A stretch of 54,665 bases of DNA, counting the filler, from Catajapyx aquilonaris (Eukaryota): assembly GCA_000934665.2 (NCBI GenBank). It is 2 parts of 2 records of this genome, joined end to end, with 100 filler letters (N's around TTAATTAATTAA, not from the genome) between each part and the next. Parts side by side here need not be neighbours in the genome. Positions count along the whole stretch, not along the records: positions 27,379 to 54,665 come from JYFJ02005078.1; 1 more part is not named here. One strand, given 5' to 3'. Positions 6,175 through 54,665 of this stretch are shown piece by piece. Position 1 is the first letter of the stretch, and each line of letters begins with the position of its first letter. The notes below the pieces were generated by a model. The model did no database searches, was not told where the DNA came from, and saw only the letters and a list, made by a program, of their open reading frames with translations. Made by a program: the position numbers and the translations under genes.

Positions 6175-6186
6175 TATTACCATATA

Positions 6187-27378: not shown

Positions 27379-28874
27379 TGTAAATTCTTGTTCTTGATTA
27401 GCCTTTGAATAATTGTGGATGATGAGATACATTGGCGCGGGGCCTTTATGGTCGGGTCGCCGTAACTCTGACACAGTGATCACTTTTAGTCTTCATCTAC
27501 GAGTATCATTATTCCTTGATGGTTGTGGAAATTTTCACAGGTAGTCTTTCTGAACAGGAAGTTATTATTCTATATGAAAAATGGAGATGATTGTTATGAG
27601 AGGTCGCTGGGATCTCCAACCCAGCAGTTTTAAGTTCCACCCAAATATCAATAGGACTTCACCAAGGAAGGAATGCAGACAGGCTGGAGCAGCCCACATA
27701 CCTGAAGTGGCGAATCAAAAATATTATTCCAGGTGCTGCTTGGAATGGCCAGAAACGTTTTGTTACCATAACTAGGATGTGTATGAAACAATAGGTAAAA
27801 TTTATGAAGTTTACACTTGTCACTTAGGGACAGGAGTGGCACAAGTTGCATAACTAGCCCAGCGGCAATCAGCTCCGCAATTATAGGCGGGTTGTTCTCT
27901 GGCCAGCCTGGCAGCACTCAGTTGCACGTGGGCATCATCTAGATTTATCACCCCCATTATCCAATTAATTGTCAGGGCAGTGTCCGGGTCCATGGCTGCC
28001 TGGAGAGGACTTGTGGGACGCAGGCTGATGATGCTTCCAGGTGACGCTACAAAAATTCTGGAATCAAAAACATGAAAGTATAAGTTTGGAGGATATAAAG
28101 AGTCGCCTCTAGGAGGTCAGCTAATTATTATCCCCGAGCCCATCACCAAAATATAGCTGCTCAAGTACGACCAGGATTCTCGTTAGCTAAAGGTGATCGT
28201 CAAGGTAAACTGTCACTATTGTCACCGTGACCACCAGAAAGTAGTGCATAATGTCTGCCAAATGCTCGCGTTGAATTCATGATGGTTAGAGATGGCCTCC
28301 CATATAATTATGATCGGACAATACTCCCAATTAAATGTAATTATGAAGCATCAGAATATCTCCAAATCTATACCGGCTGTATATATTTATGTACGGGTTA
28401 AACCACCTTCATGACATTTTAGTCGTCCATGAAAGTTGTCCCGGAATTTACCAGCGATTTAAGCGGGATAAATATTAATTTTGATGAATTTATCGAGTCG
28501 AAAGTGTGTAGATGCGAGTATCAAGTGGAGCCCTGGTGGGCAGGCTCAAAGAGACATCTTCCTGCAGGCCATGTGTTAGCCTGCCTAAGAATGTCTGGGA
28601 AGACGTAACAATTCAGATGAATTGATATGACCGTGTGGCATCATTTCAATTCAAAACATTTTAAATCATGTTTTAAAATGTAATCACACTGAACTATCTC
28701 AAAAATTACCAGTTGGGTGCCAAAGATTGACAAGGGAGAAAGTTCCACATGTTTCGATGCTGTTGCACTGAGAATTAGCTTATGTTTCATTTTAGTCATT
28801 CTGAGCTAGAAATATATCCTAATGTCTCCAATTGCGTCGCCATACAGATGTAGTACGATTTTGTCATCATTAGT

Positions 28875-29070
28875 CTTGCTTCTTTTGTCGCAGGTCATTC
28901 AACAGTTCCACCCGCACCATCACATGCTCTTTTGCCATGTGACCTGGCGTTAAGGTCCCACCGCATTTTCATTCCAAGGTGTGACTCCATGATGTCATAG
29001 GTTGAAAAAATTGAGACTTTTTTATACAGAGATGCTGTGTTATCACTGTAGTAACAGTTCAGGTTTGGTT
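28875..29070 (-). mobile_element. Decayed DDE transposase fragment (Sola2-like)
   Basis: YYSDNTASLYKK..FFNL*HH / SHGKRACDGAGGTV resembles the SDG.A.QYKN...SHGK..CDG.GG.VK motif set. Confidence 0.7.
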
Positions 29071-29159
29071 TTCAACATCGCATCACGACCTAACAGAATA
29101 GTAATAAAAATCGACACAGATATGCTGAGGCTTGTATCAGAAGACAGTCACTGATGGTG

Positions 29160-29300
29160 AATTGTGTACGAATGTGTTTTCACAGATGACGGACGGACAC
29201 CTTCAGCACTTGATATGTAAATGAGATAGTAAGAATGGGAGAATGACGTCACAAGTTGTATAGCGAACTTTGATTGTCTTTTTTTTCTTCAATATCTGTC
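29160..29300 (-). mobile_element. Possible gypsy-like RT fragment
   Basis: ...TTCDVI... and ISSAEGVRPSSVK resemble the KC.F...YLGH.IS..GV.P...K end of LTR RT; heavily degraded. Confidence 0.35.
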
Positions 29301-29374
29301 AGAAATCTTTCATACGACAGTGTTATCAGCCAATTGAATCATTGGTACCTTGATCTCCAAAAGTTGAACCAAAC

Positions 29375-29535
29375 AACAATTCAACAATATGTCGACAGCA
29401 GCCAGCAATACAAGTGTCTCACCAATATTGTGAGGCTTCTTGTCTCTTGAAATTATTATATTCTGACCTTTGGTAGAATGCTAGACAGATGCTGGAGACA
29501 GATGTCAACTGCTTCATTGAACTTGATTTCTTTAA
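29375..29535 (-). mobile_element. hAT (Buster/Charlie, ZBED5-like) transposase fragment
   Basis: ISRDKKPHNIGETLVLLAAVDI matches the IAK.KKPHTIGE.LI.PAA.D motif. Confidence 0.75.
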
Positions 29536-30150
29536 ATGTCAGTCGCTACAACCTGTCTGCTACCTCCTGTCCTGTGTGCTACTGAAGAAGATACCAGTAA
29601 TCTTTTGTGTAACCAGTTTATGACGACTGTCATCCTACTGGTTCCACATGCAACACTTGTCTGTGCAATCATTGTTGCCTTTCCATTTGTGTTTGTTCCC
29701 ATATTCAATGGCACAATAGTGCAAAGCTATCACTTGGAACATTTTTCTCTGATGTATAGAAAATCATACGTCATCCGTGTTCAAACATGGGTTTTTAGCA
29801 TGTTAAAAAAATTAGCCTCCCAATTGGGAAAGGCCATCTTCGCTATTTTGCAATGCCACGCTGTTCTTTGTAAAATTTTGGGCTATACAACAGCTATGTC
29901 ACTCATTTCAAGAATTATTCACACCACTTATGAAGTCAAGTAGTAACTGATTTTTAATCATTCGTGTCAAGAAAGGATGTTTTTCTTAAGCCCTGCATGC
30001 TCTATGGTAGGCCTACTGTTCATGTCAAGAATCGGGTAATCTCTTATTCAGCACAGGTTTAGCGAGAGTTATACGTAGTAGGCAACTCTGCATTATTGAA
30101 GGAGAGGTCATCGTGAAGGCCGAATCTGTCTTACCTTATGCTTATTGCTT

Positions 30151-30373
30151 AGCCACCTTTCCGTCCGGTGACTGATCGGACCAGGATCGGACCCATGTGA
30201 AGTAAATATTTCGCTATGTAATGAATGGATTTCAACCAGACATAACTTTTTCGAGACCTTACAACATTTCCAAGGAGCCGTCACTTTTGGGTTTTGTTAC
30301 TTTATAATTCTGCGTCGACTTTCGCCAGCTTATGGCCCTGTCCGTCTGGCGCTCACCGGACGGAAAGCTGGCC
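30151..30373. mobile_element. Small MITE-like inverted repeat
   Basis: GCCACCTTTCCGTCCGGTGA against TCACCGGACGGAAAGCTGGC (19/20 complementary). Confidence 0.55.
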
Positions 30374-31707
30374 ACGCTGATTTCTTCATTGTCCTGCTTC
30401 TCTGCTGTTCTTGAAATGGGGAGATATTGGCCGCCTAATTTTTATATCTTCGTGAAACCCAGGTCATAGCTGCTCTCAACTTTATTTGAGATGAAAACAA
30501 GACTGAGTCATATGTGACCTTTATGTTTGGCGAAAGAGTGGATATCTCACTGTCGACTGCTGCAGAGAAGCTGTATTTTAAGAGCATCTGTTGTAAGCCA
30601 TTTGTGGGAGGGTGTGACAGAAATCATTGGTGATGAGGCACGTACATTATCGCAGAAATTACGAAAATTGTAAATAATGTGATTTTGCATTTCAGTACCG
30701 GATGATTCGAGTCCGAGAGAGCGACGTCGGAATGTGGTTTACCTCTGCAATCTGCCAGTAGATTGCAGATGGGCGTGGTTAGCAAGGGATGGATTGTATG
30801 ACGTTCCTTTCAATACAGGGACAGTTTTATCCTCTTTCTGAAATATGAGCGTTGCTTCCGGCCGCATCTTATTAACATGCAATTGTCCAGCATGAAGCAA
30901 CTCGGCGGAATAATAATTTCATCCCCTCCATTACTTTCTGCCTTTAGGAGTATATACTGTATGGTGTAGGCTATACTTCCTTATATACCTAAGGAAAGAT
31001 TTTTCAGCAGTTGTGAATTAAAGTTTTTCCCGCACATCCACCAAGAACACCACCTGGACCAGACCCTCCATCACCGAACTTCCTTATTGTCTCATGTACT
31101 GTACACCACCACTCAGCATTTGGGACAGAGCATGTTTTGAAATGTTATTTCAGGACTTACCAGGCCAAATGTTTTTATATGCACACTTTGCTGAAACCTA
31201 TATGATTCATTCAAGAAACAATAATTAGCACATGTGGCTAACAGTAGGACTACTGTAATCTGTATCACTCTAGTCTCTAGTCTCGATGTATTCCCAGTTT
31301 GATTTGTTTGTAGTAACAAGGTATCGTTTCCCTCAATTCCTGCTAGCACCTGACACTAGTTGGCCGGGTGTTAATTAACACGCAAGTGTTCTGCAGCATT
31401 GCTTATTAATGTCTCCTATCGTCTTGTGGCACATTGAACACTTGCATGTGCATATGATTAATGTTGGATGTCTACTGTGTGTGTTTCCTTTTTAAATCTC
31501 AGATGAATTGGAAGCTATCAATAAGAACCTTTTTCTTCTGGTTATAAAATCGTACGTCATCCATGTGCAAAAATCAGGGTTTTTGTCCGTCCTCCATTTT
31601 ATAAAAATTAATATATCACATTCGACACAATAACACTATATGGCTCAAAGCATGTACGGCAGAGGGTTGTATAGGACTTCCCCCAATATGTTTTTTTTTT
31701 TTTTTTT

Positions 31708-31905
31708 TGCATCCTTCGAGCTGACAGCGCTGCTGTTTTTCCTTCTGCATCATGAAGTGTCCCACGCAGTCGTGTCGCACCACGTCGTCAGCTCCATTGT
31801 TCATTTGTGCACCCTGGGCCTTCCTGCAAACTTGCGTTGGCGAGTTATCTTCAAATAAACTGTGGAAATTGCTCGTCTGAAATCCTTCAGTGACATTGCA
31901 TTTCG
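31708..31905 (-). mobile_element. piggyBac (PGBD-like) transposase C-terminal fragment
   Basis: MSLKDFRRAISTVYL...GRP / DDVVRHDCVGHFMMQKEKQQRCQLEGC, typical of the PGBD2/3 Cys-rich end. Confidence 0.75.
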
Positions 31906-32419
31906 CCCTTCAGTTCAAACAACGGCTTCCTCCGGGGTTAGAAAATTTCTTTACATGTCATTGACATGGTCGCAGACATAGGATGTATGGATACCTCATG
32001 TCTGCATCTGTGTTAATAAATATTATGATCCAAAGGTCTTTATGCGCATTCATGATGTCCCCTAATCAACGTGCCACCTGTTTTATTCGCCATGCTAGCC
32101 TTACTCCAGTTCCTGTCACACCTGGGAAACTGCCTTTGTCAACACGGTTCTCGATCTTGTTTTATTGTTGCAAAATGTTGCATACAGATTATACTAATTC
32201 AAATGCACCCATCTAGCTGTTATGTAGTATACTTACTTGCATTTTCTGTGCCTTAATGGTTTGGAACCGTACGACACACTTCACGCTTCTTCATTTCAAA
32301 ATGTATTGCCGTGATGTGCAGATATCTTCTCGGTTCCGTAATCGCCGGTGGGGAGATTATTTACCCACTGCTGTGGTTTGCACATGCAACCCGCAACTTA
32401 TTTCCCCAGGTTAAAGCAA

Positions 32420-32580
32420 ATACTGTATTGTGTATACTGCATGTGTGAGGCAGTCAGATATTACAACAAGAGGTGTATGCATCAGTATTTTTATTGTTGG
32501 AACTTCGGTATTGGTTGTGAAATTGTGACTCGCTGCGACGTGACTCTGATGACCCCAATGTCTAGCAGTATTGTAATGCA
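32420..32580 (-). mobile_element. Second Sola2-like transposase fragment
   Basis: HTPLVVISDCLTH resembles the H.SFV.ISD.L.HD motif; an HW lies upstream. Confidence 0.45.
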
Positions 32581-35267
32581 AATATCATGTTGCTAAATGC
32601 AAGTTGGAAAAATGATGTACGTATGACCGCTTTTTAGAAATTCTGCCCCACTGTGCGTTGCCTCTCCATTGTTCAAGTGGAAGCTGTATAACGTAATAGG
32701 CGCAGGTTACTAGATGTTGACCTTATTTCAGACCCGTTTTAAAACGACTGATAGCGAGTCATGGATTAAAAGTGTCCATAATGTGCCACGGCAGATTTTA
32801 AAGCGAGCCGGGAAGCTATGAGTTGGCTTATATCCCCCCCCAGGCAACGACAATCGCATTATGCTATATTACAGAGGAAATAGTAGTCATACGATGCATG
32901 TGTTGTATGTGATGCAAGTGAAGGTCAAAAATCGGATGGGGACAACAGAAGCAGGACGTTGATTTTCTAGTTAATTATAACCTTGTCATTGCAATCGTCC
33001 TTTTATCTGACTTAAATTGGTAGTGCGTAATTCTGGTGAAATTTCATAGACATTTCGTGCCGTTTATTTTTTTGGGAATGAGCAACTATTATCTCATCTG
33101 CAATAAAAATCGAGCAAATATTTGGCGCCTAATATGTTGCGATGTCTTCTTCAAGGTAGCCATTCTGCCGACACTGACCTTTCTGACTGATCTCGAAAGG
33201 CAGTGTAAGTATCCTATTTGCATCGATATTGTTAATTTCCAATCCAGTTTTGTAAGAAGGCCATGTTTGGCTGACAAGATCTTGTATGATGCTCACTATT
33301 CTTTCTGCCTTCTTGCGTCTCGACGTTGTGTTTGTTCCACGGTCCGTCTCTCTCCTTGATCGTGTATGTATCGTGGATAATCTTCTTTGTTGGACCAGAA
33401 ATATTTTTAATTTCTCACAACTGGCAGTTATGGGCACGATAACCAGACACCAAAATCGACCCATAAGGCTGCATTTGAAATGGATTATCCGCCTCGTAGT
33501 AGGTGACAAGGATGGCACAGTTGTGGTGAAGCATTTTGATGAATGGACAACACATTTTGTGAAAGTGAACGTTTTATGACTTCATATGAAGACCATCGTC
33601 ACACTTTGTACATTAAAAATAGCAGTGTCTACATCTGGGTTTTTGCCCCCTCTCTGTTGGGGAGCAACAAAACGATCTACTGTAGGCGATCAAATATTGA
33701 ATATTATTTCTGGTTTACTTGTGACTTCGGGATCGTGAACTGCATCTATTTCTATTTCCTTTTAGGAAGTATTTAGCGCTGGTTGAACGAGAGTGTCGGC
33801 ACCTCTGCATCTTGGAACGGAGACGGACAGAAGGTGTGCGTCGGTGTACCCTTCTCTCCTGTTCATCGTAAGGCCGAATCCTTCTTCGATGAGCCCCGTT
33901 GTCGTGCCTCTGAAATGGGAACTGTTGACCGTCTACTTTTCTTTCATCTTCGTGAAACACTCGTCAAAGCTTCTCACCTGTGATATACAGTATTCCCTTG
34001 CATTGTGAGGTTCAAATAATATTGAACCAGTATCATAATGCATTTTGTATCCACTAATTTTAAAAAAACACACACACATCTCTTATACTGTATATACGTA
34101 TGTACCGTAGAGTACACAGTACAGTTGGGTCATCAAAACGGTTTTTGGCAGGCGGACTTGAAATATGGGTTTCTTTAGTCTCGTATTGGAGCACATCTGG
34201 TCGTGTCGAGTATTATAAGTGTAGCCTTCCACTATTGCGTATTATTAAGTGTGTGACGTTCCCAATAATTGAAGGGTCGTCCCGAATAACGTTGTAAGTG
34301 ATCATTTTCACCAAATCACAACTATATGAATGATTTCTTTGTAAGCAGCCATCATGTGGAGGGCAACGCCTCTTGTCAGTCGCGCCAACTCAACACAAGC
34401 TCATTTCTGAGGATATTGGAGTAGTGTTTTTCTAGTCATGCACTGTTTAACTTTTATCATGTTTTCTTGTACTGTGCAAACACTCGGCCAATAACTGAAG
34501 CCTTACCGAGATTAATTCGAGTCGTGTAATGCGTAACATTAAAGTCATATTGTGTATTCGTGAGAATGGAAGGTATCGTGCATGGTCGAGTTTTTCATTC
34601 ACATATTGCTAAATCCCATGATTCGAGAAGAAATTATTATTAGCACAAGTGGCTAACAGTACCGTACTCTATTATGCATTTCTGATTATGTATTCGCATT
34701 GTGATTTGTTTAGCAGGAATTGTTTCCTGCAATTGCTCCGAGCACAGTCTGGCACTGGCTGGCTGTGTTTTAATAAAAATGTGGGACAGCTGGTTGCATT
34801 TAATGGGAATATTTTCTTTTGTGTATAGGATATGAGCTATTTGTTGCACTATAATGCGCTCTGTCCCGTTTGATTTAACAATTGGCATGAATGACTAATC
34901 ATTTATTCGAGCACATCCGATGTTTCGAGTCCGAGAAAGTGACGTCTAGTTGTGGTGTGTCACCCCCGTCATGGAATACAGCAGTATTTGGGAAATTGCA
35001 GATGGGATTGACCCGCAAGAGATGGATAGTGTGGACATCTTGCAACGGAGGGAAAGGTTTTCCGCTTTTTGAAATATGGGCGATGCTTCCAGCTCTTGCA
35101 TCAGCTTGACTTTACGGTCTTCCAGGAGGTTGGCAAACTTCTCCAAGAAGCCGTCCCAGCTCAAATAGGCGCACCTTATTAGCATGCACTTGTCCTGCTA
35201 CAGTCTATTGTAGCCTTAGTAGCACCTAATTAGTGTGTTCCCTATACACTAAAGTTGAAGTTGAACA

Positions 35268-35390
35268 AAAAGCATGTGAAGAAACCTGGCCGTCAATCTA
35301 TATTCAGCCCAGAAGAAGAGGAGATCTTTGTACCACATTCGGTTGCTGTGGGAAAGTTTGTATTCCTGTCAATCTTTTTGAGCTGCGCTG
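35268..35390 (+). mobile_element. pogo/Tigger-like transposase N-terminal fragment
   Basis: KHVKKPGRQSIFSPEEEEIFV...GKF/IPVNLFELR resembles the GR..VF...EE...GFP...DLR segment of CENP-B-type HTH. Confidence 0.55.
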
Positions 35391-38300
35391 ATCTCGCATA
35401 CATCTTGCCGTCTTGATATTTATTTTCAATGGTTGGAAGTAGTCCTTTCGTCATTTTACCACAGTGATCGCATAGTAGCGTATTGAGAGATGAGTTTGTG
35501 TTTCATCGTAGCTTGATGCCCAATTGCATATCAAACTTCTTCTATTGCTCCATTGATGGCTCAGACTAAATGACAGATATCACTTCATAAGGGATTTCCA
35601 TTTGATGGATATGAAAATAATTGTGCTAGCAGTATACTCTAATATATTGTGCATTACTCGTTATGTATTCGCATTTTGATTTGTTTGCAGGAATTGTTTC
35701 CCTCATCAATTTCTCCAAACACCTTGCACAGGCTGATAATGTGTTAATGAAGACACCAGTGTTCTGAAGCATTGCTTGTTGATAAGTACATATCTGAGGT
35801 TTGCATGTACGCATGTCAGGTTAAATTAAATAAATTCCCAGTTTTTCAGTTTGCCGCTAATATAGTCCAGCAATTATTACCGTAAAAACAAATTGGTGCA
35901 ATAATAATTTGGAAAATCCTAATGACACCTATATTTGGGGAAATGGTTGCTAATTACTCCTGCACTGTCCTTCGTTAATGTGGATGAGAGAATTATGTTA
36001 CCGGTACGTATTTATTTGAAATGCATACTCACCTTTATGCCGTCACAAAATGTCCTTGCACTAAACTGACCAGTCGGAGCACCCAAATATGAATCTCTGT
36101 CGTTCACGTGTTCGTAGTAATCCAACTTATTAAATTTACATTGATGAATGACGTAAAGTGCCTTGACTTGAAGTGAAAATGCTCTTGTCAGTCACCAGGG
36201 GAGAAAGTTCAGGCGCTATATGACTGTGGATACTGGCTTCCATGCTTTTCAGATGCGAGTAACTACTTTGGAGGCCTCAAAATGAGTCAAATACAGTGTC
36301 ATACACTCATGCAGCTTTCACATATAATTGACACTGGTGAAATTATTCACATAATATGCTACAATTGACACTTTGATCATGGCTCAAAAATGCTTCCTGT
36401 TACATAATGATGATGTGTGACCGGATATTTTTGTCACGAGTGAAGATAAGTTGATTCAACAGGCCTGCTGCACTGTAGCTTCATCTGAATTAATCTCCTA
36501 CTGCATGTGCAGTTGCTTATGCGTGCTCAGTTCCATGCGAAGATGTCACTAATGCAGCGTTAGATTTATTGCTGAAAAATGCTCTGCGGTTGACTGATTC
36601 ACCAACATGAAACAACAATTTACTGAATAAGTGCTTTTAGTAAGGAATGATTATCTGACTAAAATGTCTGTATCATAACAGTACTATGCAGAATACTAAT
36701 TGGACCATGTGAAATGGTTAGGTTAGGATGTTTTATTCAGATAATTTGCTATCTCCGGAACATCCAGCATCGTATATATTTGGGAAAAGGGTTACTACTT
36801 ACTCCTGGACTCTCGTTTGTTAAAGTTGATAATAGAATTATGTTGCGTCGTTATATGAAATGTAAACCTTGTTTACATCGTCATAAATGCATTTCAGGCT
36901 AGACTGAATATAGTCGCAACACCCATCAATGCGATGTTGTTTCCTCTGGAGAAAGTCTTCTTCACAACAATTCAACGTCTTAAATTCATAATGATTAATG
37001 ATGTCGTTCGTATCAGAAGCAATCACATGCAAAACGAAAAGGGTTACATCGATGCCAGGATAATTATTTGGTCTGATTGTCTTTTTTTGTTTCGTTGTTC
37101 GATATGCTTTCTGGTTGTCGGCAGCATTTGTAACACCCGAAGTATTGTATCAGTGGGACCGGAATCCATTGAGGTGTTTATTTTCTGAAGGCCATTTCTT
37201 CGTGTAAGTCGCTCTCTGTTCTGATCATATGCCCTGCTCCGCTCTTGCAACCCAGGTCTTCTTCGTAATTATTTCAGATAGTCTTTGTCGTTTATCGACA
37301 CTTCTCAGGTGGACTTAACTGGACAAAAATTATGAGTTATTAGTTTCGCGCTCAATTACACGAATGCGTGGGGAGTGTGACACATACCCTTTTCGTTATC
37401 GAAAAACGACTCCCCAAAGTAATTCCAGAATACAATACATTACTAAGGAAAAGTAAAAAAGCCGCCGCCTCACATGCGATCTCCTAACCGTTACATGTGT
37501 AATGTATGCTTTGCGAGACGTTTGGGATGGTGTAACAGAAATAATTGGTGATGGGCATAGTTACCTGTCATTGACATTATCTCAAATTATGGGGATGAAA
37601 TAATTATTGTTTTCTTTTGAATTTAGGCAGCGGATGATTCGAGTCTGAGAAGTGACGTCTGTCCGTGATATTCCTATACCCTGCTAATCTCATCCGCTTG
37701 ATTCAACAATTGGCATCAATGACTAGTATCTTATTTGGGCATATCCGTGGAGAATCTGCTGCCGTGGGGTTCGCCTACGATCCATTCGGATCTTTCCATC
37801 CGGTCCATCGGGCATTTCATGTATGATGCACATTGTGTCTCCAGTTTCACTGACTGTTAGTGGACCCCCCTGCCTTTTCTCATAGTCTTGGTTGTTTAAA
37901 GACATATCTCGGGAGTACTTAAAGTGGACAAAAACAATGAGTCCCTCAATTACAGGAATTGTTGGGCGAGTGTCATTGTCGTTAAACTGTATTAAAACAA
38001 CTCCCAAGTAATTCGTCGTAGTTTGAAATACCTCATGGCCGTCATGAATGCATAGGTCGAATTCGCAGTAGTTTTATAAAATTTGGTTTTTGTACTTATA
38101 TTCCTCAGTCACACAGAGGAGCACTTGCACCCTTCTTGTGTGAAGTGGGCATGTGCTTTCCGAAAGTCTTCGTGAAGGCCGAATTAGCCTTCCTGATCCT
38201 GTTCATCCGTATCCTATCTTAAAGTTATGGTATGTGTTGTGTCACAAATTTCTTGGTAAGAGTATGTAGGGCAGGAGCAATGTAAAATGAGCATATTCTG

Positions 38301-38526
38301 TGGCATTTGGTGCTAATTTGGTGCTTTACCTAATCACTTGATATGGTGGCAAAAAGATGACGTTGTCACTCGAGGGTTCCTTGTGTTTGATGTCGACAGA
38401 ATTATTATTCCATTTTATGGAGTCCGATGGCCAGTTTGTCTCTCTGGGTTGTCAATATCGAAGCTCTCCCTCTTATCTAGCCTGAGTCAAGTTTTATTGT
38501 GGCTGTGTAAAAATTTTAACTTCACA

Positions 38527-38757
38527 TATCTGTGACGCCTGGGAATCTAGCAGTCTGGGAGAATTGACGCCTGATGTCTTAGGCATTGTTTATGCTGCGG
38601 TCGGGACATTTGATGAGTACCCGCTCCCTCAGGCTCCCAATAGCCAGAGCCACTCGTCTGATGACCCTGCAGACTGTAGGCTGGGAAGCGTTGTCCAGGT
38701 CTGCAATGGTCGGCTGGAAACTTTCAGTGGCTAACAGTCTGAAGGCTATCTGGAGCT
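38527..38757 (-). mobile_element. PIF/Harbinger (HARBI1-like) transposase fragment
   Basis: LQIAFRLLATESFQPTIADL..ASQPTVCRVIRRVALAI...FSQTARFPGV matches L.ALRFYATGSFQ...GD...SQPTV...F...AGFPGV. Confidence 0.85.
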
Positions 38758-39499: not shown

Positions 39500-39605
39500 G
39501 GGGTGGCCTTGCCTGCCCTCCCCTACAACGTCACAGGTGCTTGGCGCAGTATAGCCATTGCTGCTGTTGCGCCATTAAACCATTAATCAATCAATCAATC
39601 AATCA
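39500..39605 (+). mobile_element. Retroposon 3' end with (ATCA)n tail
   Basis: GCGCCATTAAACCATTAATCAATCAATCAATCAATC; only the tail is recognisable. Confidence 0.4.
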
Positions 39606-45600: not shown

Positions 45601-47320
45601 ATTGTGCAACATAGACCTGACATGATCACGTGGCCTGGCGGTATAGAGATGGAATGTGAAATTATAGTACTCGTCATAATAATTCACATCCTCCTGGGCG
45701 CTCGTAAACAGCTTGATTATAGGGCGTTGAGTAAAATCCCCTGAACAAATTATCAGTTTGCGGCCTAGTAAACATTCGCTAAGACTGTTAAGACGGGAGT
45801 AATTATTCTGTCTCATTGTGCTGACATGTAATATTTTGTGGATACAACTGACAACTTGTATGTATTCTACTGGATGGAGACACTACATCGTTGCTTTGCA
45901 AGCCGTGTGCCATTGGCCTCATTTTTTGCATGTCGTCATCGAGTTTGTGTTGTTTCCCGCTGTTCCTTTTGGTTAAATAAATTCATCAGCAATGTATTAT
46001 ACTTTAATGAGGTGATTCTACGTCTTACGGTATGTGACCTAACTAATTATCATATGTTATGTCCAAGAGAATTTTTCATTCACACTGCGACTAAACCTGC
46101 AGATACTCTTTCTGCAAACTTTTCTTATCATCTCTTTATTACTGTGTGTGTCATGAATATATACCTGAGTTTCAATAAGGTTGAAACGCGGCTTTCTCTG
46201 CAATGTGTATGGATTCAGTAGCTTAGGAAAACCCTCGCAAACCATTCAGATAGTCAGGATTATTCCAGCTCCACTTTTGTCGTGCCATTATTTTTTCATC
46301 GCGTTGCATTTTTATGAACTAATTAATCAATTAATTATTCAAAAGGATAATTTCAGAGCTCACGCAGCAATAACACGTTGCCATCTCCTGTACCATACAG
46401 TTTCTTTTGCTGTAGTCACTATCTAGTCGGGAGGACTTCCTGGCTGAGAATATTTACTCGCCACAGAGGTATGAATGCACCCAGCAATATTTTCTTATCT
46501 CAGGTTAAAGCAAAAAAGCTGTTAGGTTCCCACTAATAGAGATGAGCAATTAATTCAATAATAGCGATCATTTTATGCTTCTCTGTACGTGCTCCTCAAT
46601 CTCCTGTTACGTTGTGGTGCGTTATTAATAATTTCCAGCAAGAATATTCTACGTATGTAGGGCATCATTGTAAAATTAGCCTATTAATGACATGAGATGC
46701 GACTGATTTCAAGTAATAAGTGCAAGTGTTTGTAGCTCTCATGATTTTTCCATGTGAATTGTATGATAGTTTTGAGCATTAGTTATATTCTCGAAACCTT
46801 GCTGTGAATAGTAGTTGTCACTGAAGACTTATGAAAATAGTAAATGTCTGATTGCAGAGAAATAATGCTGGGAACAGTCACCTTGGTTCCTTACTATACT
46901 GTAGGGAATACTGCGAATGTCAGGGATAATTAACATTTTGTATTAGTCGCTGGCTTGATTGCTCGACAGTTCCAGTTCTTCGTCGCTTCCAGGTGTATAG
47001 TGATGCCGCGTAGATTTCGGCGTAGCCTCTTGTTCATTTGCATGATGTTGTGAAGGAAGGTCTCCCCCCAACGGTACCGTGTGCACCTGTATTGACATAA
47101 CGCACTGTTTCTTTTCCGAGTCGGTTACGGCCAGTACCTGACCAGCAGCAAGTGTAACAAGTTGTAATACCTGTAATACCGTATACTACACCCTTCTGGC
47201 TATTTTTAATACTTTTTTGAGTTATTCATTGTATTACGTGTAACATACTAGGTCTAGGGACTTGCAAAATGGACAAACGGGTGTATTTTTGTGTGTAACA
47301 ATTTAAATGAGAAGAAAGAG

Positions 47321-47484
47321 ACTGGCAAGTTGAGGGCTCTCCAGGGAATCAAGCAGTGGTCGAAAGCAAAGGATTTGGGCTGATCTTCCTGTCTGGCTTG
47401 TCCATGGCGGACTCTTGATGGTTCTGGTTGTTCCCTCATGGCAACCACACATTCTGCTTGTAGCTCCAGTTCCCTCCTGTTGAA
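47321..47484 (-). pseudogene. Khc-73: Fragment of kinesin-3 (Khc-73/KIF13) motor N-terminus
   Basis: FNRRELELQAECVVAM...QPKSFAFDHC..DSL...N.AS against kinesin-73 PFNRRE.EL...C.V.M...QPK.FAFDHCF.SL....NFASQ, with small indels. Confidence 0.75.
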
Positions 47485-48559
47485 GCATCAGCCAGCCATC
47501 CCTCCACTTTCGAATTGCTTTTTGTGCTTCTGGTACATTATGCGGACCCAAAAGCTGTGGTGTATGATATTGATTACCAGAGTCAGAGGAAACCAGTATC
47601 GTCTTCTATGTCTCCGGTGGTGCTGCTTCTTCCCTCGTGTAATTATCTTAGTTCTGGTTTGACGGCTGTTCGGTGTCCACAAGTAATATGACCTTTTTTT
47701 CCAATCTTGTACCAAGAGTACTTGTTTTTGCGGGTTTACATGTATTTTGTGCAAGGAGAGTCTTGGTTGAAGGAACTGATTGGGCTTTGGTAGGGGGTCA
47801 TTATAATGTTGAGGGTAGTTGGTGTTTCGGAGTTTCTGGCCCTCCTGGTCGTCCTCTTAATAATTAATATTCGTTTCCCGATGAGCAATCTCTAGCCCAA
47901 TCTTCACCTGGTGTCGGCTTCCTGTGCACCAGAGTTTGTACTTGGGGCTCCGAATTTGAACGATGTTGACCGTTCGAATGTCAATGGTTTAATGAGAGAA
48001 CGAACGGATTTTCTTGTGTTTTGCATAAAACCACGGTGATTGGTACTAGGGTTACAATAATGAAAAATAATAAGTGTTACCAGTATGTTGTTATTGCTTT
48101 ATTTAGCCTTTGTCGGCCTGCAGCACATGCCTCTTGGCCGACTATTTCTCCGACGATCCATGATAGCGTGTTGATATAATCGCGATCCAGCGCTATGGTG
48201 TCCATTATAATTCCGACTTCGATCCCGGAATAAAAAGGTGCTTCAGGACCCGCGACGATTGTGGATGTGGTGGACCGATGTCGTCTAGTAGGACATCCGG
48301 TCTGAAAAAGGTATGGTAGAGGTATATAAGTTACTGAGTTTTCATTTAAAAAAATATGCATTGATACATTGCCTTACCGATACTGGGTGAGGGGAATAGT
48401 CACGTCCTCTATGGGGGTGTCCCAGAGTGGATCCTCTGAAATTAAACGAGTGGGCATTCGCTTCGAACGTATACGTATACTCGTTTGTTTAAAAGTGACC
48501 TGCTCTTTATGAAAGTCCATATGCGAAGAGAAGCCGCGCCTTTTTTTCCAGATCATGGT

Positions 48560-48690
48560 TCGACACTTCTGTGACTGCACCACCAATGTCTTGGTTGGAT
48601 GATTTAGAATCCGACTGTTGACACTGTCAAATAAGCCATTCATCTGCTTAACGAAGTCTGCCGTATGGCGAACTTCAGCTGGGACCACTG
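48560..48690 (-). mobile_element. P-element/THAP9-like transposase fragment
   Basis: HTADFVKQMNGLFDSVNSR matches the TA.F...MN.LFD..NS motif. Confidence 0.75.
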
Positions 48691-48879
48691 GGGGAACAGC
48701 AGGACAGCGTGTAGAGTGGGGCAGATATAGTAACTTACAGGGGGGGCATGAAGTGGGGCTGTCAGATTTGCATTAAACTTGCACAGTAGGTGTATCACAT
48801 GCCTACAATTTCACTGGTATGGGCCATTTTCTGCTACGGCCAGCCGTTGTCGATCTATGAGGTCCTTGAAGGTGAAGCA

Positions 48880-49720
48880 GACTTCAGCACAAAGTCTTCT
48901 TCCACTTCTTAGGCCACCACATTCTCCAGGTAGTCCTGAACAATTGTTTTTGACGACTTCACCGAACGACTGCACACGGTAGTGACGTTTGGAGGTTTGT
49001 ATAAGGACAGCCTGACCTGCGGACCGAAGTTCCGAGTCCTCTCCATCAAACAGACGAACATATTTCCCACGACGTCACCACTCATGGCAATAGTGTATTC
49101 CACCGTGTAACTGTGTGTTACAAGGTTCGTGTGTGACTGTGCGTATCCTAGGGTAAGTTTTTCTCCCTTGAAGGATAAGGTTCGTGATGAGTTCATCTCG
49201 TAGTTGAACCCACACTGGTCGGTGTTCAAACACAGTTCAGGGCGAAACTTGGGCGAAACATCCCTGAACTCATCCTGAAAGATCTTTGCTGCAGTGGCAA
49301 TCTGGGCTTCATCCTGGATATGTCTTTTACTGACCAACTTGGTCACTTTTCGGCTTGAAATTCTGTTGGATCTCCTGAACTTCTTGGCCCACTTATTGGT
49401 GGCTCTGAACTTGAGATTTCCATCGTCAAATTCGCGGAATTTTTCCATCGCCCAGAATCTCAAACGTGACGTCCGTATGATCTTATAGGTCCTTCTGGCA
49501 TCAGCAACAAACTTGTGTACATACCGATTGATTATTCTGTGTCTTTGGAGGGCGCCATTCACCTTCATTTGCTTCTTAAATATATAAAGTTGGCGAATAC
49601 TTTTCAGTTCCCGTGCTCCATGCTTCTGCAGGCTGGCCAATTTCCAGGTGGGGTGATTTTCATGCAGAAGAACAATTTCTATTTTTCTCTCCAGGCTGAG
49701 TGTCTCAATTCCTTTGGGTT
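48880..49720 (-). mobile_element. Truncated Tc5/Tc4-like (pogo-related) transposase: CENP-B-type HTH + start of DDE
   Basis: ORF 48909-49640: FRATNKWAKKFR...ISSRKVTK, NTDQCGF, THSYT, FGP. An upstream frameshifted segment reads LERKIEIVLLHENHP/TWKL. Ends before the second catalytic Asp. Confidence 0.85.
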
Positions 49721-49762
49721 TCTTCTGTGGTGGAGATTGTTCCCAGCTCGCTGATTGACTTC

Positions 49763-50957
49763 TTACCTAGCACGGCAAAGTCCACCACAATTCCCTGGTC
49801 GCATGGCGCTCATATTTCCAACGACCCTGTCAATAATGGCATTTTTAGAGGTCCTGTACCGCCCTTGTAATTCTCGGCAAAAACTACTCAACTTGTTGAT
49901 GCTATTGCACCTGCCACCTGAGTTAGTAGTAATGGTGCTATGTTCCTTGCCCAATTCAAAATTCACATGCGGTGCTTCCTCTACTACAATGGTGTTTGAC
50001 TGTCGACATGCTTGACAGTGAGTTTTATATTGCTGGACAAACTTGAATGTTGCATCACAGTTGCAACAAATAAGTTTGTTTGTTTGTTTTTACTACCCCG
50101 TTCCGGAGCGTTGCTCCTTTAGGGGGACACAACCACATCTCATACAGAGCCCATAGACATATATTTGCCCACATACATGCAAAAATTATATACATCAGAG
50201 ATAATCAGTTTCGTTGGTTCATGGAATGTCAAATGGAAACAATTTGGAGGGTGACGTTGGACATTTTCAAGATATTGACTACGGGGCGTTGTAAATATTG
50301 GACATTGAAACATAAGATGATGACAAGAAAAAATCTCACTCATATTGCACCAATCACAATTCTGGTCGGACGAGAACATAACCTTATGGCCTGCCATCCA
50401 AACAGATCTCGAATTATTTTTTAAATTTAGCCACAGGCGTAGATGCGATAAGGGCAAGTTGAAAGAGAAGTACTGTTCAATGGAAGGCGTGACCTTGTAA
50501 ACTGGTCCATATGCTGAGGAGTTGTTTATCCTCTCCAAATCTGCGTTGTGATGGAAAAGCTCCATACCATTCTGAATTTGTTCTAAATTCGTTGATTCTA
50601 GATCTTCCATAGTTAACAGTTGCAACAAATAAGGCGTATCTTCATGTCATGATTAGAAGTCATGTGTTTCAAGAAGCAAGATTGTCATTGTTGCAGAGTT
50701 TGATGGCTGCACTGCTACCAACTGGCTGGGCTTTCTTCAACTCTCTCAGTCTGGAAAATATCTGAGTGGAGAGAGAATATGTGAGTACGAAGCAGTTCAT
50801 AAGCAATACTGGATTTCAAAATTATTGTGTGCATGAAGCATTTGGTACCAATGCATGCCAGGGGATCTTCTGTCTTGCCTTCTGGCATGATCTCCATGTC
50901 TTTTATCTCACCATCAGCCAAGTCATCAGCGCTCTTCCATGGTTTCTGAATGGGCAA
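49763..50957 (-). mobile_element. Decayed multi-zinc-finger ORF split by a LINE (probably a DNA-transposon protein N-terminus)
   Basis: Removing 50075-50615 plus one TSD puts ORFs 50715-50957 and 49763-49966 in one frame, with two internal stops and three Cys/His fingers. Confidence 0.55.
50075..50615 (-). mobile_element. 5'-truncated LINE
   Basis: CDWCNMSEIFSCHHLMFQCP knuckle, (AAAC)n tail, 18-bp TSD ACAGTTGCAACAAATAAG at 50057-50074 and 50616-50633. Confidence 0.92.
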
Positions 50958-51061
50958 CAGGGAATGGTAGGATCATTCATAGGAGTTACTGCTACTATTC
51001 TAGTTGATGTTTATTTGAGTCATTGTTAATCAGTTATGTATTATTCAGTAGGTTCACTTAC

Positions 51062-51198
51062 TTTGTCTTCTGGTCTTAGGAGATAAATTAGTGTTCCATG
51101 TGGAATTACTTGTAACACTTCACTGTCATCCACGTCGGTGCCATCCTCCAGGTAGGCGGTCACATCGCACTCCTTGGGGATATCCAACTTTCCCTTCC
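51062..51198 (-). pseudogene. Isolated exon encoding a CIDE-N-like domain segment
   Basis: KLDIPKECDVTAYLEDGTDVDDSEVLQVIPHGTLIYLL (EDGTxVDD signature), bounded by TTTTAG acceptor and GTAAGT donor. Confidence 0.6.
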
Positions 51199-51539
51199 CT
51201 AAAATAATGACAAATAATGTGGGCTTCACTTCCTGTTACAGACGCTCAGGATGTAAAAGTTCTGTATACGTGGACAATTGTGATACCCCCTCGATGTACA
51301 GTTGAAGACCCCCATGCTGTCTACCTAATTTACGGGCAGGCCCTAAGACAAAAAAATTTCGTGTTTTACAAAACGGGCAGAAAAAGACTTCACTCAACCC
51401 TTAACTTGCAATGTCAATTCGAGCTACATCGTGAAATGTTGGGTCACTGGTGAGCCCTGGTGGTAATTCAATTATTTTAAATGTTGAATTCATGCAATTA
51501 ACATTTTTGTGCCATGTAAATTAAGCTCACATAAATCTG

Positions 51540-52589
51540 AAAGTGTAAGTAATGCAACACACTTGTATCACTTGTATCCCCAGGAATCCATGATATTCAG
51601 GAACTGTTATGGGATCCCAGTTCTTCATCTTTTTTCTCTTCTTCCCATCCATACCGTCTTGCGTTGCACACAGGTTTGTCTGTTCAACCAGCTGCGTCAT
51701 GACTTTGTCATCTAAGAACATATGAAACAGTTCGAGTGGTTTCAACTCTCCATAGTTCTTGTTTGCCTATTGCCACCAGTAAATGGAATGTGTTCATTTT
51801 GGTTTATGAAGCTGGTTGTTTTTGTCCATGTCCATCCAGGTGCTCCTTGAGGCTGCTGCACTGGACCATGTCCATCCAGATGCTCCTCCATTAGGCTGCT
51901 GCGTTGGATCATGCCCTGTTGCACCACCACGTCTGGACTTGGGTGCAGAACCTGGACACGGGGCATCTTGCCTGGTAGTGCGGTGTTTTTTTAAAGCCCG
52001 TCAATCAAATTGCTTGCATTATAATTTATTTTGCATAGTTGAACATTGCAACATTGTGATATAATATTGTAAAACTATGCTATGTGTGACGGCTAGTTTC
52101 ACCGAGCCAGTTTTATTATAAATCCTTAGTTTTGATTGTTGTCAACAATGATTGCTATGGCAATTCTTGAGCGAGCCCAGGTTGGTGAAACGAGCCCCGA
52201 GTGTCTGTCCCATAATGCAGTTAGCATTAGCAGAAATTAATATATCCATGTACACAGTATATCTATTTATCTTACCTGGAGGTTGATGGCTGAGGACTTG
52301 GACTACGTCTTGCCATTACCTCTTGTCCATCACTCTCCTCCTCCATATCTTCCACATCTCCTTCAACCTTCTCTGCCATGCCTTCCACACCTCCGTCACC
52401 CTCTTCTCCACCATCAATCTCATCAATTAGCTCCGTATCATGCAACAGCAATGAGCCCATTTCCGCAGGTTCCAGCACTTCAAATTCAATCTGCCCTGAT
52501 AGGTCCTGGTCTTCACCATCTGATTCCCTGGGATCATCCTCTTCCAGAAGGTCCGCAGTGTCACACTCCAAGAGGTTGGGGAATGCCAT
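51540..52589 (-). mobile_element. piggyBac (PGBD4-like) transposase 5' part, probably with an intron
   Basis: PLELFHMFLDDKVMTQLVEQTNLCATQ...W.PITVPEYHGFLGI at 51550-51745. The acidic segment 52276-52589 ends at CAG|GTAAG and fits an N-terminal exon (linkage inferred). Confidence 0.7.
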
Positions 52590-52614
52590 GGTGATGACTA
52601 CTGACTGGACACTG

Positions 52615-52856
52615 TACTGCTCTGGAGCCAGATCCCGGAGGAACTCCAACAGCGTATATGGACCTGGTCGCGCGTGAAGCGGCCAGGATTTCCATCGAGG
52701 TCAATGCCAGGAAGACAGTAACTCGACATCTATCTGCTGGCAGCAGGACACCCGCGGGTCCCCGGCCCACCATCTTTAGTCTCGGGGAGCAGCCGGTACT
52801 ACACTTGTCCGAGGGGGAGTCCACCAGATTCCTCGGGCGCACAGTGGCGTTTCATG
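52615..52856 (+). mobile_element. R2-group (NeSL/Utopia-like) RT fragment
   Basis: PEELQQ/DLVAREAARISIEVNARKTVTRHL...GPRPTIFSLGEQPVLHLSEGESTRFLG corresponds to RT domains 6-7. Confidence 0.7.
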
Positions 52857-53064
52857 GAGTTGAACCTGTTTTAATTTTGAATAACTTCAACATGGGCCCG
52901 GAAGGAGGGATCCACCTGATATGACCACGCCCTGAACATCTAGATGAACCAGGTGACCTCGATGACCCAGTAACCGACTCCAAGTGATCGTTCCGACTCA
53001 GATGGGGTGCCGACCATCTTGGACAAATACGGCGAGAGTAAGGAATGGCACGAACAACGCACAC

Positions 53065-53270
53065 TTTATACCAGTCCCCGTGTACCAGTCCTTCCTCATC
53101 CGTATCACAAACTAGCTGGCAAAGTGCTGGAATCAGCAAAGAGCTGATGGTGTCAAAAGTAGGAGATGGGTTGGTGTTACGGCACATTTTCGATATCGTC
53201 TGGGCGATATTTCGCACGTTGGGAATTGTAGGGCTGCGCTTGATGAGTTCCAAAAGAGACTGTATCACAG
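53065..53270 (-). pseudogene. Importin-alpha (karyopherin alpha) ARM-repeat fragment
   Basis: VIQSLLELI...VRNIAQTISKMCRNTNPSPTFDTISSLLIPALCQLVCDTDEEGLV matches PLL.L....RN.TW.LSNLCRNKNP.P......LP.L..L....D. Confidence 0.75.
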
Positions 53271-54300
53271 GTCGTCTGAGATGAATGTTAGGGCAGAGCC
53301 TGCCTGATCGGCGACCCGTGGATGACTCGAGCTCAGTAGGGTCACTAGTTTTGGGACAGCCCAATATAATATAATATATAATATACATATAATTATGGCA
53401 TTAGCTTTATGTGCACTTGATTTATATATGCTTTTGCTTGGAAACCACTTTCGGATATATCCGGGTCTGCTTGAAAGGGCAATTTTCCCATGGCTCGCAT
53501 TCGGTGTATGTCTGGTTTCACTTGCAACTCAATGTCAATAGAAAGGCATTGGATGGAGCATGCCTCCAGTGTAGCCAGATTATTTTCGACCCGAAGTGGA
53601 TTTATCTGGATTTGCTGGCAAGCTCCTCCCTTCGACCCGCCCACTCCCCCATTTTTGGGGAGAGGGCATATATACCAGTCCGTGTACCAATCCTTCCTCA
53701 CCACCCACCTTCCTCCTCTCCTGCTAATTAGTCCCTTCCTGTCCAGCTCACGCTTTCCTCTCCACGGCCGCTTGAAGAAAGAGATTCTACTAGTATGGCT
53801 GGTTCACGAGGCATACTAGAAGCTTTTCTGACGTCCGCTCCACCCTCCCTCTTCCCTTCTCAGAACTGTGACGTACCCACGGCCATTCCCTGCGGGCACG
53901 TCCTTTTTCTTATGGAAAAGTGGGGAGTCAGCCTGCATTTGAAATCTTGAATCAAATGTAAAATCGTCTCTATGTTTTTGAGCGATATAGTACCATTAAA
54001 TGCAACACACACTCGAACACACAGCTCTGTATCTTTCTTAATGAATCACACTGTAGAGCAGTACAACAAGGAAGAAGATTGTCGCACCAGTGTCAAAATG
54101 TGCATAAATGCACCACAAATTACAGGTCACATTTTAATGGCGTAAGTTACAGATTGTTTCTGGTTATGGAAACACAATTTCCTCCTAAAGACCTAAACTA
54201 AACCACACCCTGGCATGATACTGATGTAAATGTGTAAATGTGAAGGAACAATGTATTTTGTCGTCCACGACCAGGTACGTAATGAGCTTCAATCAGCAAA

Positions 54301-54555
54301 AAACTAAAAAATAGGAAAGCAGCCGGGCCAGACCATATCCCAAATGAACTTTTCAAAGTAGGAGCGGAATGCCTCACAAACGAAATATTAAACCTTTATA
54401 ATAAGATTTTAGATACCGGAGATATCCCCCACAGTTGGGCAGAAATAACAAATATACCGATATTTAAAAATGGAGACCCGACCGCCCCATTAAACTACAT
54501 GCCCATTTCCTTGGTAAATGTAATCTTAAAACTATTCACTTCTATACTGGCCAAA
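54301..54555 (+). mobile_element. LINE ORF2 RT N-terminal fragment
   Basis: Open frame without an upstream start: KLKNRKAAGPDHIPNELFK...IPHSW...PIFKNGD...NYMPISLVNVILKLFTSIL. Confidence 0.9.
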
Positions 54556-54665
54556 GAATCGCCGCATGCGAGGGGTCCGCCATTCGAAGATTTTTTGTAC
54601 GAGATTCAATGAATCGCCTGATTCAACACTGATTCATTGATTCAGATAGTGATTCACAGATTCAA

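What the first reader, a model, noticed from the sequence alone, without database searches (positions are those of the whole stretch)
27379..54665. Strand-biased mosaic of short TE fragments: candidate uni-strand piRNA-cluster-like locus
Seen: about 27 kb with no intact gene recognised, but many short pieces of unrelated TE superfamilies packed together. Of the 17 coding pieces I could recognise, 14 are on the minus strand (Sola2-like x2, gypsy-like, hAT, piggyBac x2, Harbinger, P, Tc5-like, ZF ORF, LINE, CIDE-N exon, kinesin, importin). Three are on the plus strand (pogo, NeSL/Utopia-like RT, LINE RT). Most are internal coding slivers without their own termini. Known: flamenco-type clusters accumulate antisense TE fragments. 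Inference: a plus-strand precursor would yield antisense small RNAs against many families, here unusually rich in DNA transposons.
Basis: partly seen in the sequence, partly recalled or inferred. Interest (0 to 1): 0.85.

Follow-up and report, generated by a model that had tools for sequence, protein, structure and literature searches.

The report
One-way transposon graveyard, piRNA role untested
This 27-kb piece of an arthropod-type genome is a pile of broken mobile-element genes and repeat copies that nearly all point the same way, the layout of a one-strand piRNA source locus, but no RNA data could be reached to show that it acts as one.

Summary
Tools back 8 of the 17 named pieces. Six are firm: Harbinger, Tc5, piggyBac, CIDE-N and importin-alpha on minus, and a LINE RT on plus. 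Two are weak: P-element and the LINE zf-RVT, both on minus. Kinesin was not found. Sola2, hAT, pogo and the NeSL RT could not be located.

Two annotation-free checks agree with the bias. All 37 of 37 internal repeat pairs are direct, none inverted. AT skew is negative in every 3-kb bin from 30 to 54 kb and flips where the plus-strand LINE lies.

The left edge (27279-27378) is an artificial N/TTAATTAATTAA linker, so the finding is a separate sequence piece with unknown flanks.

No RNA run was listed, so piRNA production is untested. Old local duplications, or a position inside an ordinary long transcript, remain live rivals.

DNA-transposon-rich uni-strand clusters are already known in insects. 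The scan has noted the same layout on at least 6 other pieces of this genome. Verdict: a reasonable, untested candidate of a known kind.

The parts
27279..27378 (.). Artificial joint: 44 N, TTAATTAATTAA, 44 N (a six-frame stop linker). The finding is therefore a separate sequence piece. Its adjacency to 1-27278, and its strand relative to that half, are not real.
   Evidence: sequence read; N runs
27379..54665 (.). The whole piece: a gene-free mosaic of decayed transposon fragments and repeat copies. Sense strands lie almost all on minus. The plus strand is T-rich (AT skew -0.091).
   Evidence: Pfam; repeats; skew
29638..47173 (.). Zone of interspersed repeats: 42 of the 44 repeat loci, in 14 of the 15 families. 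Units are at most about 1 kb and 65-83% identical. Every homologous pair is in direct orientation. Offsets are irregular, so this is not a tandem array.
38012..38935 (-). Decayed Harbinger/PIF transposase: one frame with in-frame stops, the best-conserved part at 38525-38827. Flanking repeat families recur at 41292-41803, 43302-43451 and 45495-45923 in the same orientation.
   Evidence: Pfam itself found nothing.
48377..48772 (-). P-element/THAP9-like transposase fragment (weak support).
   Evidence: Pfam TNP-like_GBD, E 0.021. No support from PDB or the atlas.
48888..49742 (-). Internal fragment of a Tc5-type (pogo-superfamily) transposase, matching residues 147-439 of a 614-residue relative at 42% identity.
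49766..50089 (-). It lies where the missing N-terminus of the Tc5 protein would be, so it may belong to that element.
   Evidence: no meaningful Pfam hit; geometry; the link to Tc5 is inference
50143..50646 (-). C-terminal part of a non-LTR (LINE) reverse-transcriptase protein (zf-RVT); moderate support.
   Evidence: Pfam zf-RVT, E 0.02; atlas, 24 of 30 hits in the zf-RVT set at score 0.95-0.96; the PDB search gave only noise
51044..51235 (-). CIDE-N domain fragment (profile positions 30-75 of 76): an exon-like or captured host-gene piece.
   Evidence: E 2.5e-5, above the curated cut-off
51530..51766 (-). N-terminal start of a piggyBac transposase domain (DDE_Tnp_1_7, profile positions 2-49 of 349).
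   Evidence: (E 6.2e-7)
52855..53528 (-). Importin-alpha remnant spread over shifted frames: ARM repeats matching importin alpha-3 residues 188-265, plus an Arm repeat. Probably a frameshifted retro-copy (inference).
   Evidence: E 2.2e-6; Arm, E 0.0047
54286..54609 (+). LINE reverse transcriptase, N-terminal part (matches L1 ORF2p residues 462-550 and R2). It is the only supported plus-strand piece, at the very end of the window, where AT skew flips to +0.16.
31619..31909 (-). ORF that by eye resembles a piggyBac C-terminal Cys-rich region; unsupported by tools.
   Evidence: translation; no hits. The resemblance is recalled, not tested.

Best explanation
The piece is a fragment of a uni-strand piRNA source locus. 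Its true ends are unknown because it is cut at both sides.

Proposed mechanism:
1. A long Pol II transcript is made from the plus strand.
2. Remnants of many transposon families (Harbinger, Tc5, piggyBac, P, LINE) and retro-copied host genes lie with their sense strand on minus, so the transcript is antisense to them.
3. Processing of that transcript would give 24-31 nt, 1U-biased piRNAs able to target those families.
4. Sense-oriented insertions are lost over time, because they add no useful antisense piRNAs or end the precursor early. This keeps the one-way layout.

Shown here: the mosaic, and the one-way orientation by three independent measures.
Inferred, not shown: transcription, its direction, and any small-RNA output.
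For: - Unrelated superfamilies are co-oriented: 7 of 8 tool-supported coding pieces are on minus. Local duplication cannot explain this for unrelated families.
- In the balanced Pfam scan, 5 of 126 minus ORFs and 0 of 157 plus ORFs carry a transposon- or host-gene-named hit.
- 37 of 37 internal repeat pairs are direct. Even when loci within 300 bp are merged, 16 loci in 2 groups give 14 free orientations, all alike (p=6e-5).
- AT skew is uniformly negative from 30 to 54 kb. It flips exactly where the one plus-strand LINE sits.
- That single sense-oriented piece is at the far right end. [quoted passage not shown]
- Uni-strand clusters holding LTR, non-LTR and DNA elements are described as the rule in non-drosophilid insects (PMC9962485, passages read).
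Against: - There are no expression or small-RNA data of any kind.
- No promoter or cluster end can be seen, because the left edge is an artificial joint and the right edge is the window end.
- Many co-oriented repeats are copies of a few families within 8-18 kb, which old local duplication would also give.
- Poly(A)-signal hexamers are not depleted on the plus strand: AATAAA 16 observed against 11.3 expected.
- Only 35% of the piece is accounted for.
- LTR/Gypsy enrichment, part of the flam-like definition, is absent.
Confidence: 0.35

Rival explanations
1. An ordinary repeat-rich stretch whose one-way look comes mostly from old local duplications. A few elements, above all a Harbinger family and short associated repeats, were copied nearby in direct orientation by unequal exchange or replication slippage and then decayed. 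The co-orientation of the few unrelated coding remnants is chance, brought out by selecting windows.
For: - The 44 repeat loci collapse into few families clustered in 29.6-47.2 kb.
- Harbinger-linked blocks recur four or five times within 8 kb, partly with shared junctions: the E-C adjacency occurs at both 38.9 kb and 43.3 kb.
- Coding pieces alone do not beat chance after allowing for 533 windows.
Against: - Offsets between copies are irregular and collinear runs are at most about 1 kb, so there is no large duplicated segment and no periodicity.
- Copies have different neighbours at most sites.
- Duplication does not explain why unrelated families in the repeat-free 48-54 kb part are co-oriented too (Tc5, P, LINE, piggyBac, plus CIDE-N and importin copies).
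- It also does not explain why AT skew is uniform across the unannotated 65%, under the inference that skew tracks the sense strand of the elements.
Confidence: 0.3
2. The piece lies inside a long ordinary plus-strand transcription unit, such as a giant intron or a long non-coding RNA. Sense-oriented insertions are purged because their splice and poly(A) signals disrupt the host transcript. This leaves antisense remnants without any dedicated piRNA role.
For: - It predicts the same orientation pattern as a piRNA cluster. This includes the co-orientation of the retro-copied host genes (importin-alpha, CIDE-N), which piRNA defence has no need for.
- The T and slight G excess on the plus strand is the direction reported for non-template strands in mammals; this is recalled and not tested for arthropods.
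Against: - No plus-strand exon or domain was found: 0 of 157 plus ORFs had a meaningful Pfam hit.
- Intronic antisense bias is usually modest and weakest for DNA transposons (recalled), whereas here it is nearly complete.
- Poly(A) hexamers are not depleted on plus.
Confidence: 0.2
3. There is no biological bias. The pattern comes from chance plus the composition of a T-rich strand.
For: Weak direct alignments could be favoured by a skewed composition.
Against: - Block-shuffled sequence with the same local composition gives 36 direct and 30 inverted shared 12-mers, against 205 and 51 observed.
- Strong pairs (E<1e-10) are all direct.
- The same method finds inverted pairs in the other half of the window.
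Confidence: 0.05

Closest known systems
Drosophila flamenco and flam-like uni-strand piRNA clusters (van Lopik et al. 2023, PMC10643416; search listing, passages read)
   Same: Transposon fragments are packed together with a clear strand bias opposite to the inferred transcription. Sense insertions are tolerated towards one end. There are no intact genes inside.
   Different: - Flam-like loci are defined by LTR/Gypsy enrichment, with the bias driven by Gypsy elements. Here DNA transposons and LINE pieces dominate, and a gypsy-like piece is seen only by eye.
- Flam loci span 227-1,085 kb; here 27 kb of unknown total is visible.
- The promoter, synteny, soma expression and piRNA output that define flam could not be examined.
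Uni-strand piRNA clusters of non-drosophilid insects: Tribolium (187 clusters with LTR, non-LTR and DNA elements), whitefly (MITE-rich clusters) and honeybee cluster 8 (DNA-transposon remnants). As summarised in PMC9962485 (search listing, passages read; the primary papers were not read).
   Same: They are discrete loci of mixed transposon classes, including DNA transposons, with antisense bias, presumed to be Pol II transcripts from one strand. The size range of tens of kb fits.
   Different: Those loci were defined by small-RNA mapping. This one is defined only by DNA layout.
Other one-strand transposon graveyards noted by this scan in the same genome (e1-7683629, e1-7683656, e1-7506408, e1-7596252, e1-7682800, e1-7683721)
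   Same: They have the same layout, similar lengths (19-60 kb) and the same dominance of DNA transposons. All are likewise untested by RNA.
   Different: They are different sequence pieces. I found no sequence likeness to this one. Those notes are unchecked AI notes.
Antisense-biased transposon accumulation inside long introns (general knowledge, recalled; no call)
   Same: One-strand orientation produced by selection against sense insertions within a transcript.
   Different: The bias is usually partial and weak for DNA transposons. No flanking exons are visible here.

Membership tests
flam-like uni-strand piRNA cluster (criteria of PMC10643416, passages read) | Strong strand bias of transposon fragments | tested here: met
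   7 of 8 supported coding pieces are on minus; 37 of 37 repeat pairs are direct; AT skew is uniform. Caveat: part of this may come from local duplication.
flam-like uni-strand piRNA cluster (criteria of PMC10643416, passages read) | Enrichment in LTR/Gypsy elements, which drive the bias | tested here: not met
   No LTR-element domain appeared in any Pfam scan. The by-eye gypsy-like RT near 28.2 kb had no PDB match. Supported pieces are DNA transposons, LINEs and host retro-copies. Pfam is insensitive here, so a few LTR remnants may be hidden.
flam-like uni-strand piRNA cluster (criteria of PMC10643416, passages read) | Large size (flam-syntenic loci 227-1,085 kb; de novo clusters over 35 kb) and a position outside centromere and telomere | tested here: inconclusive
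   27.3 kb is visible, cut by an artificial joint on the left and by the window end on the right. The chromosomal position is unknown because no genome is held.
flam-like uni-strand piRNA cluster (criteria of PMC10643416, passages read) | piRNAs from one strand only, antisense to the transposons; expression in the soma | not testable with these tools
flam-like uni-strand piRNA cluster (criteria of PMC10643416, passages read) | A defined Pol II promoter at the 5' end and conserved synteny | not testable with these tools
   The 5' side is an artificial joint. No relatives were found.
Generic insect uni-strand piRNA cluster (as summarised in PMC9962485) | Discrete locus enriched in fragments of several transposon classes, mostly antisense to one transcript | tested here: inconclusive
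   The mixed classes and one-way orientation are met. Enrichment against the genome and the existence of the transcript could not be tested.
Generic insect uni-strand piRNA cluster (as summarised in PMC9962485) | Abundant 26-32 nt, 1U-biased small RNAs mapping to one strand | not testable with these tools
Degenerate tandem array or segmental duplication | Regular period, or long collinear duplicated blocks | tested here: not met
   There is no preferred offset among shared 12-mers. Collinear runs are at most about 1 kb. TRF finds only two tiny arrays. Small, old, scattered duplications are not excluded.

The most novel reading that the evidence does not exclude
This arthropod genome may keep a whole set of flamenco-style one-strand archives: this piece plus at least six others noted by the scan. 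They would be built mainly from cut-and-paste DNA transposons and retro-copied host genes rather than from gypsy-type retroviruses. That would amount to a uni-strand piRNA defence aimed chiefly at DNA transposons, repeated many times per genome.
Probability: 0.2. Interest if true: 0.5.

Novelty: new member of a known kind. Interest (0 to 1): 0.3.

Why it matters
If small RNAs confirm it, this piece and its look-alikes would map the piRNA source loci of a little-studied arthropod from DNA layout alone. They would also show how such loci are built where DNA transposons dominate, rather than retroviruses. That helps genome annotation and comparative work on transposon defence, but it extends known biology rather than changing it.

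As it stands, the useful results are these:
- The orientation bias survives two annotation-free tests.
- The left 'boundary' of the finding is an assembly artefact.

Tried and rejected
RNA and genome access
- RNA data: no RNA holder was listed for 37379-47378, so read laying could not be used.
- No whole genome is held, so no genome background for the strand bias could be computed.

Pfam
- Six long read-through frames (stops as X) gave only piggyBac and lost CIDE-N, so long pseudo-proteins are less sensitive than ORFs.
I did not repeat it, because a focused read-through of the Harbinger stretch gave 0 Pfam families even at E<=1. Pfam therefore cannot annotate these remnants.

Other protein searches
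- Word-indexed protein searches found nothing for the Harbinger-like ORF 38582-38755(-) or the piggyBac-C-like ORF 31619-31909(-).
- PDB sequence searches found nothing for the P-like ORF, the piggyBac-C-like ORF, two gypsy-like read-throughs or the plus ORF 45484-45741. For 50143-50646 they gave only noise.
- The atlas gave no usable hit for the P-like ORF.
- Peptide-motif regexes for kinesin, RT and integrase gave no kinesin and only chance-like matches.
- tblastn with the fetched Tc5 and Harbinger proteins found one locus each, with no second copy and no plus-strand pogo.

Other checks
- Rfam: 0 families.
- Tandem repeats: 2 tiny arrays.
- No periodicity in repeat offsets.
- Poly(A)-signal depletion on plus: not seen.
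- Earlier-findings look-ups near this place, by sequence and in relatives all returned nothing.

Rejected idea: that the neighbouring minus-strand zinc-finger gene cluster shares a divergent promoter with the locus. The two halves of the window are joined artificially.

Full report
WHAT THE WINDOW IS

The 54,665-base window is not one continuous stretch. Positions 27279-27378 read 44 N, TTAATTAATTAA, 44 N. That is a six-frame stop linker of the kind used to join separate sequence pieces.

The finding (27379-54665) is therefore a separate piece, cut by the joint on the left and by the window end on the right. Its 'left boundary' is an artefact.

The left half (1-27278) holds tandem C2H2 zinc-finger ORFs, all on minus. 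It cannot be used as genomic context. I used it only as a method control. Earlier notes of this scan call the genome arthropod-like.

CODING REMNANTS: SYSTEMATIC SCAN

I scanned all 283 stop-to-stop ORFs of at least 45 aa in the piece (157 on plus, 126 on minus) against Pfam:
- all 283 at E<=0.01;
- the 150 ORFs of at least 59 aa at E<=2;
- the other 133 at E<=0.5.

Hits named after a transposon or a host gene:

| Hit | Position | E-value |
|---|---|---|
| DDE_Tnp_1_7 (piggyBac) | 51530-51766(-) | 6e-7 |
| CIDE-N | 51044-51235(-) | 2.5e-5 |
| Arm | 53268-53528(-) | 0.005 |
| TNP-like_GBD (P element) | 48377-48772(-) | 0.021 |
| zf-RVT | 50143-50646(-) | 0.02 |

That is 5 of 126 minus ORFs against 0 of 157 plus ORFs (Fisher p=0.017). 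All five lie in 48-54 kb. The remaining weak hits carry unrelated names and look like noise.

Pfam is a poor annotator here. It gave nothing for the 285-aa ORF that turned out to be a Tc5 transposase. It also gave nothing, even at E<=1, for a 308-residue read-through of the Harbinger remnant.

CODING REMNANTS: SPOT CHECKS

- ORF 48912-49766(-) matches Tc5-type transposases (E 1.7e-61, 42% identity). The hits carry PF04236 and PF03221.
- The read-through of 38012-38935(-) found 20 proteins at E<=1e-3 among 1.84 billion (best 8e-6). Of the 13 of those 20 that I scanned, 7 carry DDE_Tnp_4, HTH_Tnp_4 or Plant_tran, so it is a decayed Harbinger transposase. tblastn finds only this one locus.
- ORF 52855-53400(-) matches importin alpha-3 residues 188-265 (E 2.2e-6).
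- ORF 54286-54609(+) matches L1 ORF2p and R2 reverse transcriptases (E 1.7e-6).
- The zf-RVT ORF is backed by the atlas: 24 of 30 hits fall in the zf-RVT set.

Not supported:
- the P-like ORF beyond its weak Pfam hit;
- the piggyBac-C-like ORF 31619-31909(-);
- a gypsy-like RT that I see by eye near 28.2 kb(-);
- kinesin (no Pfam hit, no motor motif).

My guess for the last, 45484-45741(+), has no RT match. It lies over a repeat homologous to the 5' end of the minus-strand Harbinger.

Tally: 8 of the 17 named pieces are supported (6 firmly, 2 weakly), 7 on minus and 1 on plus.

ORIENTATION WITHOUT ANNOTATION

Repeat pairs:
- Self-BLAST of the piece gave 37 repeat pairs, all 37 direct and none inverted (word 7, E<=0.01).
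- At stricter settings on the whole window, 17 of 17 pairs inside the piece are direct. The left half shows several inverted pairs as well as direct ones, so the method does detect inverted repeats when they are present.

Shared words:
- Shared 12-mers number 205 direct against 51 inverted. Block-shuffled controls with the same local composition give 36 and 30.
- Shared 14-mers number 77 against 6.

Families:
- The pairs form 15 families and 44 loci. All but one family lie in 29.6-47.2 kb. Units are at most about 1 kb and 65-83% identical.
- Treating nearby loci as one event is the conservative way to count. Merging within 300 bp leaves 16 loci in 2 groups, all alike (p=6e-5). Merging within 500 bp gives p=0.002.

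Composition:
- AT skew on the plus strand is -0.07 to -0.13 in all eight 3-kb bins from 30 to 54 kb.
- It flips to +0.16 in the last 665 bases, exactly where the plus-strand LINE RT lies.
- This suggests that the skew tracks the sense strand of the elements. If so, most of the unannotated 65% is co-oriented too. That last step is inference.

IS IT MORE THAN CHANCE?

With 533 windows of this genome read, about 7 such windows are expected by chance, which is close to the number of such findings noted. That count alone is therefore not convincing.

The repeat and skew evidence is much stronger, but it carries its own caveat. Several 'families' are parts of one Harbinger-related element that recurs at 38.1-39.2, 41.3-41.8, 43.3-43.5 and 45.5-45.9 kb, partly with the same junction. 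Old local duplication, which makes direct copies by itself, can explain part of the pattern.

Against duplication as the whole story:
- offsets are irregular, with no period;
- collinear runs are at most about 1 kb;
- neighbours differ between copies;
- TRF finds no arrays of note;
- the repeat-free 48-54 kb part holds five or six unrelated remnants that are co-oriented as well.

MECHANISM

The best single reading (about 0.35) is a fragment of a uni-strand piRNA source locus transcribed on plus. Sense-oriented insertions would be lost over time.

The only supported sense-oriented piece lies at the far right. That fits the reported tolerance of sense insertions towards the 3' end of flam-like clusters (PMC10643416, passages read), but it is a single case.

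Rivals:
- old local duplications plus chance (about 0.3);
- a position inside an ordinary long plus-strand transcript, where sense insertions are purged for splicing or polyadenylation reasons (about 0.2). This would also explain why retro-copied host genes are co-oriented;
- pure chance or composition (about 0.05), which the shuffles and the left-half control make unlikely.

Poly(A) hexamers are not depleted on plus. This is mildly against strong selection on a plus-strand transcript.

Nothing here shows transcription. No RNA run was listed and no genome is held.

COMPARISON WITH WHAT IS KNOWN

Flam-like clusters are defined by LTR/Gypsy enrichment, strong strand bias, a position away from centromere and telomere, and one-strand piRNAs. 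Their sizes are 227-1,085 kb (PMC10643416).

| Defining feature | Here |
|---|---|
| Strand bias | Met |
| Gypsy enrichment | Not met |
| Size | Inconclusive |
| Position | Untestable |
| One-strand piRNA output | Untestable |

I therefore do not file the piece as flam-like. It 'works like' one only by hypothesis.

The better comparison is the uni-strand clusters of other insects. A review states that uni-strand clusters dominate outside the Drosophila germline. It also says that:
- Tribolium has 187 uni-stranded clusters with LTR, non-LTR and DNA elements;
- whitefly clusters are mostly MITEs;
- honeybee cluster 8 holds DNA-transposon remnants.

These points come from PMC9962485 (passages read); I did not read the primary papers. 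Richness in DNA transposons is thus not unusual.

The scan has noted the same layout on at least six other pieces of this genome, all untested by RNA. None shares sequence with this piece.

VERDICT

- Novelty: at most a new member of a known kind.
- Interest: about 0.3.

Noticed in passing
window 27279-27378: An artificial six-frame stop linker (N x44, TTAATTAATTAA, N x44) joins two separate sequence pieces inside one window. Findings that span it, or that use the other half as 'context', would be misled.
   Followed up: yes
window 2889-3815, 11235-12168, 14870-16815, 20732-21178, 21809-22984 (all minus): Tandem cluster of C2H2 zinc-finger ORFs with up to 19 fingers in a 601-aa ORF, 74-87% identical to each other at the DNA level. 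No transposon-named Pfam hit appeared among the 150 ORFs scanned in this half.
   Followed up: partly
window 7428-8009, 19107-19783, 26607-27278: A unit of about 0.6 kb repeated 2.3-3.6 kb upstream (on minus) of three of the zinc-finger ORFs. The last two copies are 97% identical. Each holds a 160-175 aa minus-strand ORF without a Pfam match, probably the shared N-terminal exon or promoter unit of these genes.
   Followed up: no
window 6168-7396; 9496-10077 with 10850-10260; 4457-4986 with 6177-5640: Large inverted repeats or palindromes (80-96% identity) in the left piece. They contrast with the complete lack of inverted pairs in the right piece.
   Followed up: no
window 52275-53803 (minus): The importin-alpha remnant runs over several shifted frames without obvious introns and ends in an acidic tail. 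It looks like a frameshifted processed pseudogene (inference).
   Followed up: partly
window 51044-51235 (minus): The CIDE-N match starts at profile position 30 of 76, with nothing recognisable upstream in frame. It is exon-like, so it is a relic of a real gene, a captured exon or a partial copy.
   Followed up: no
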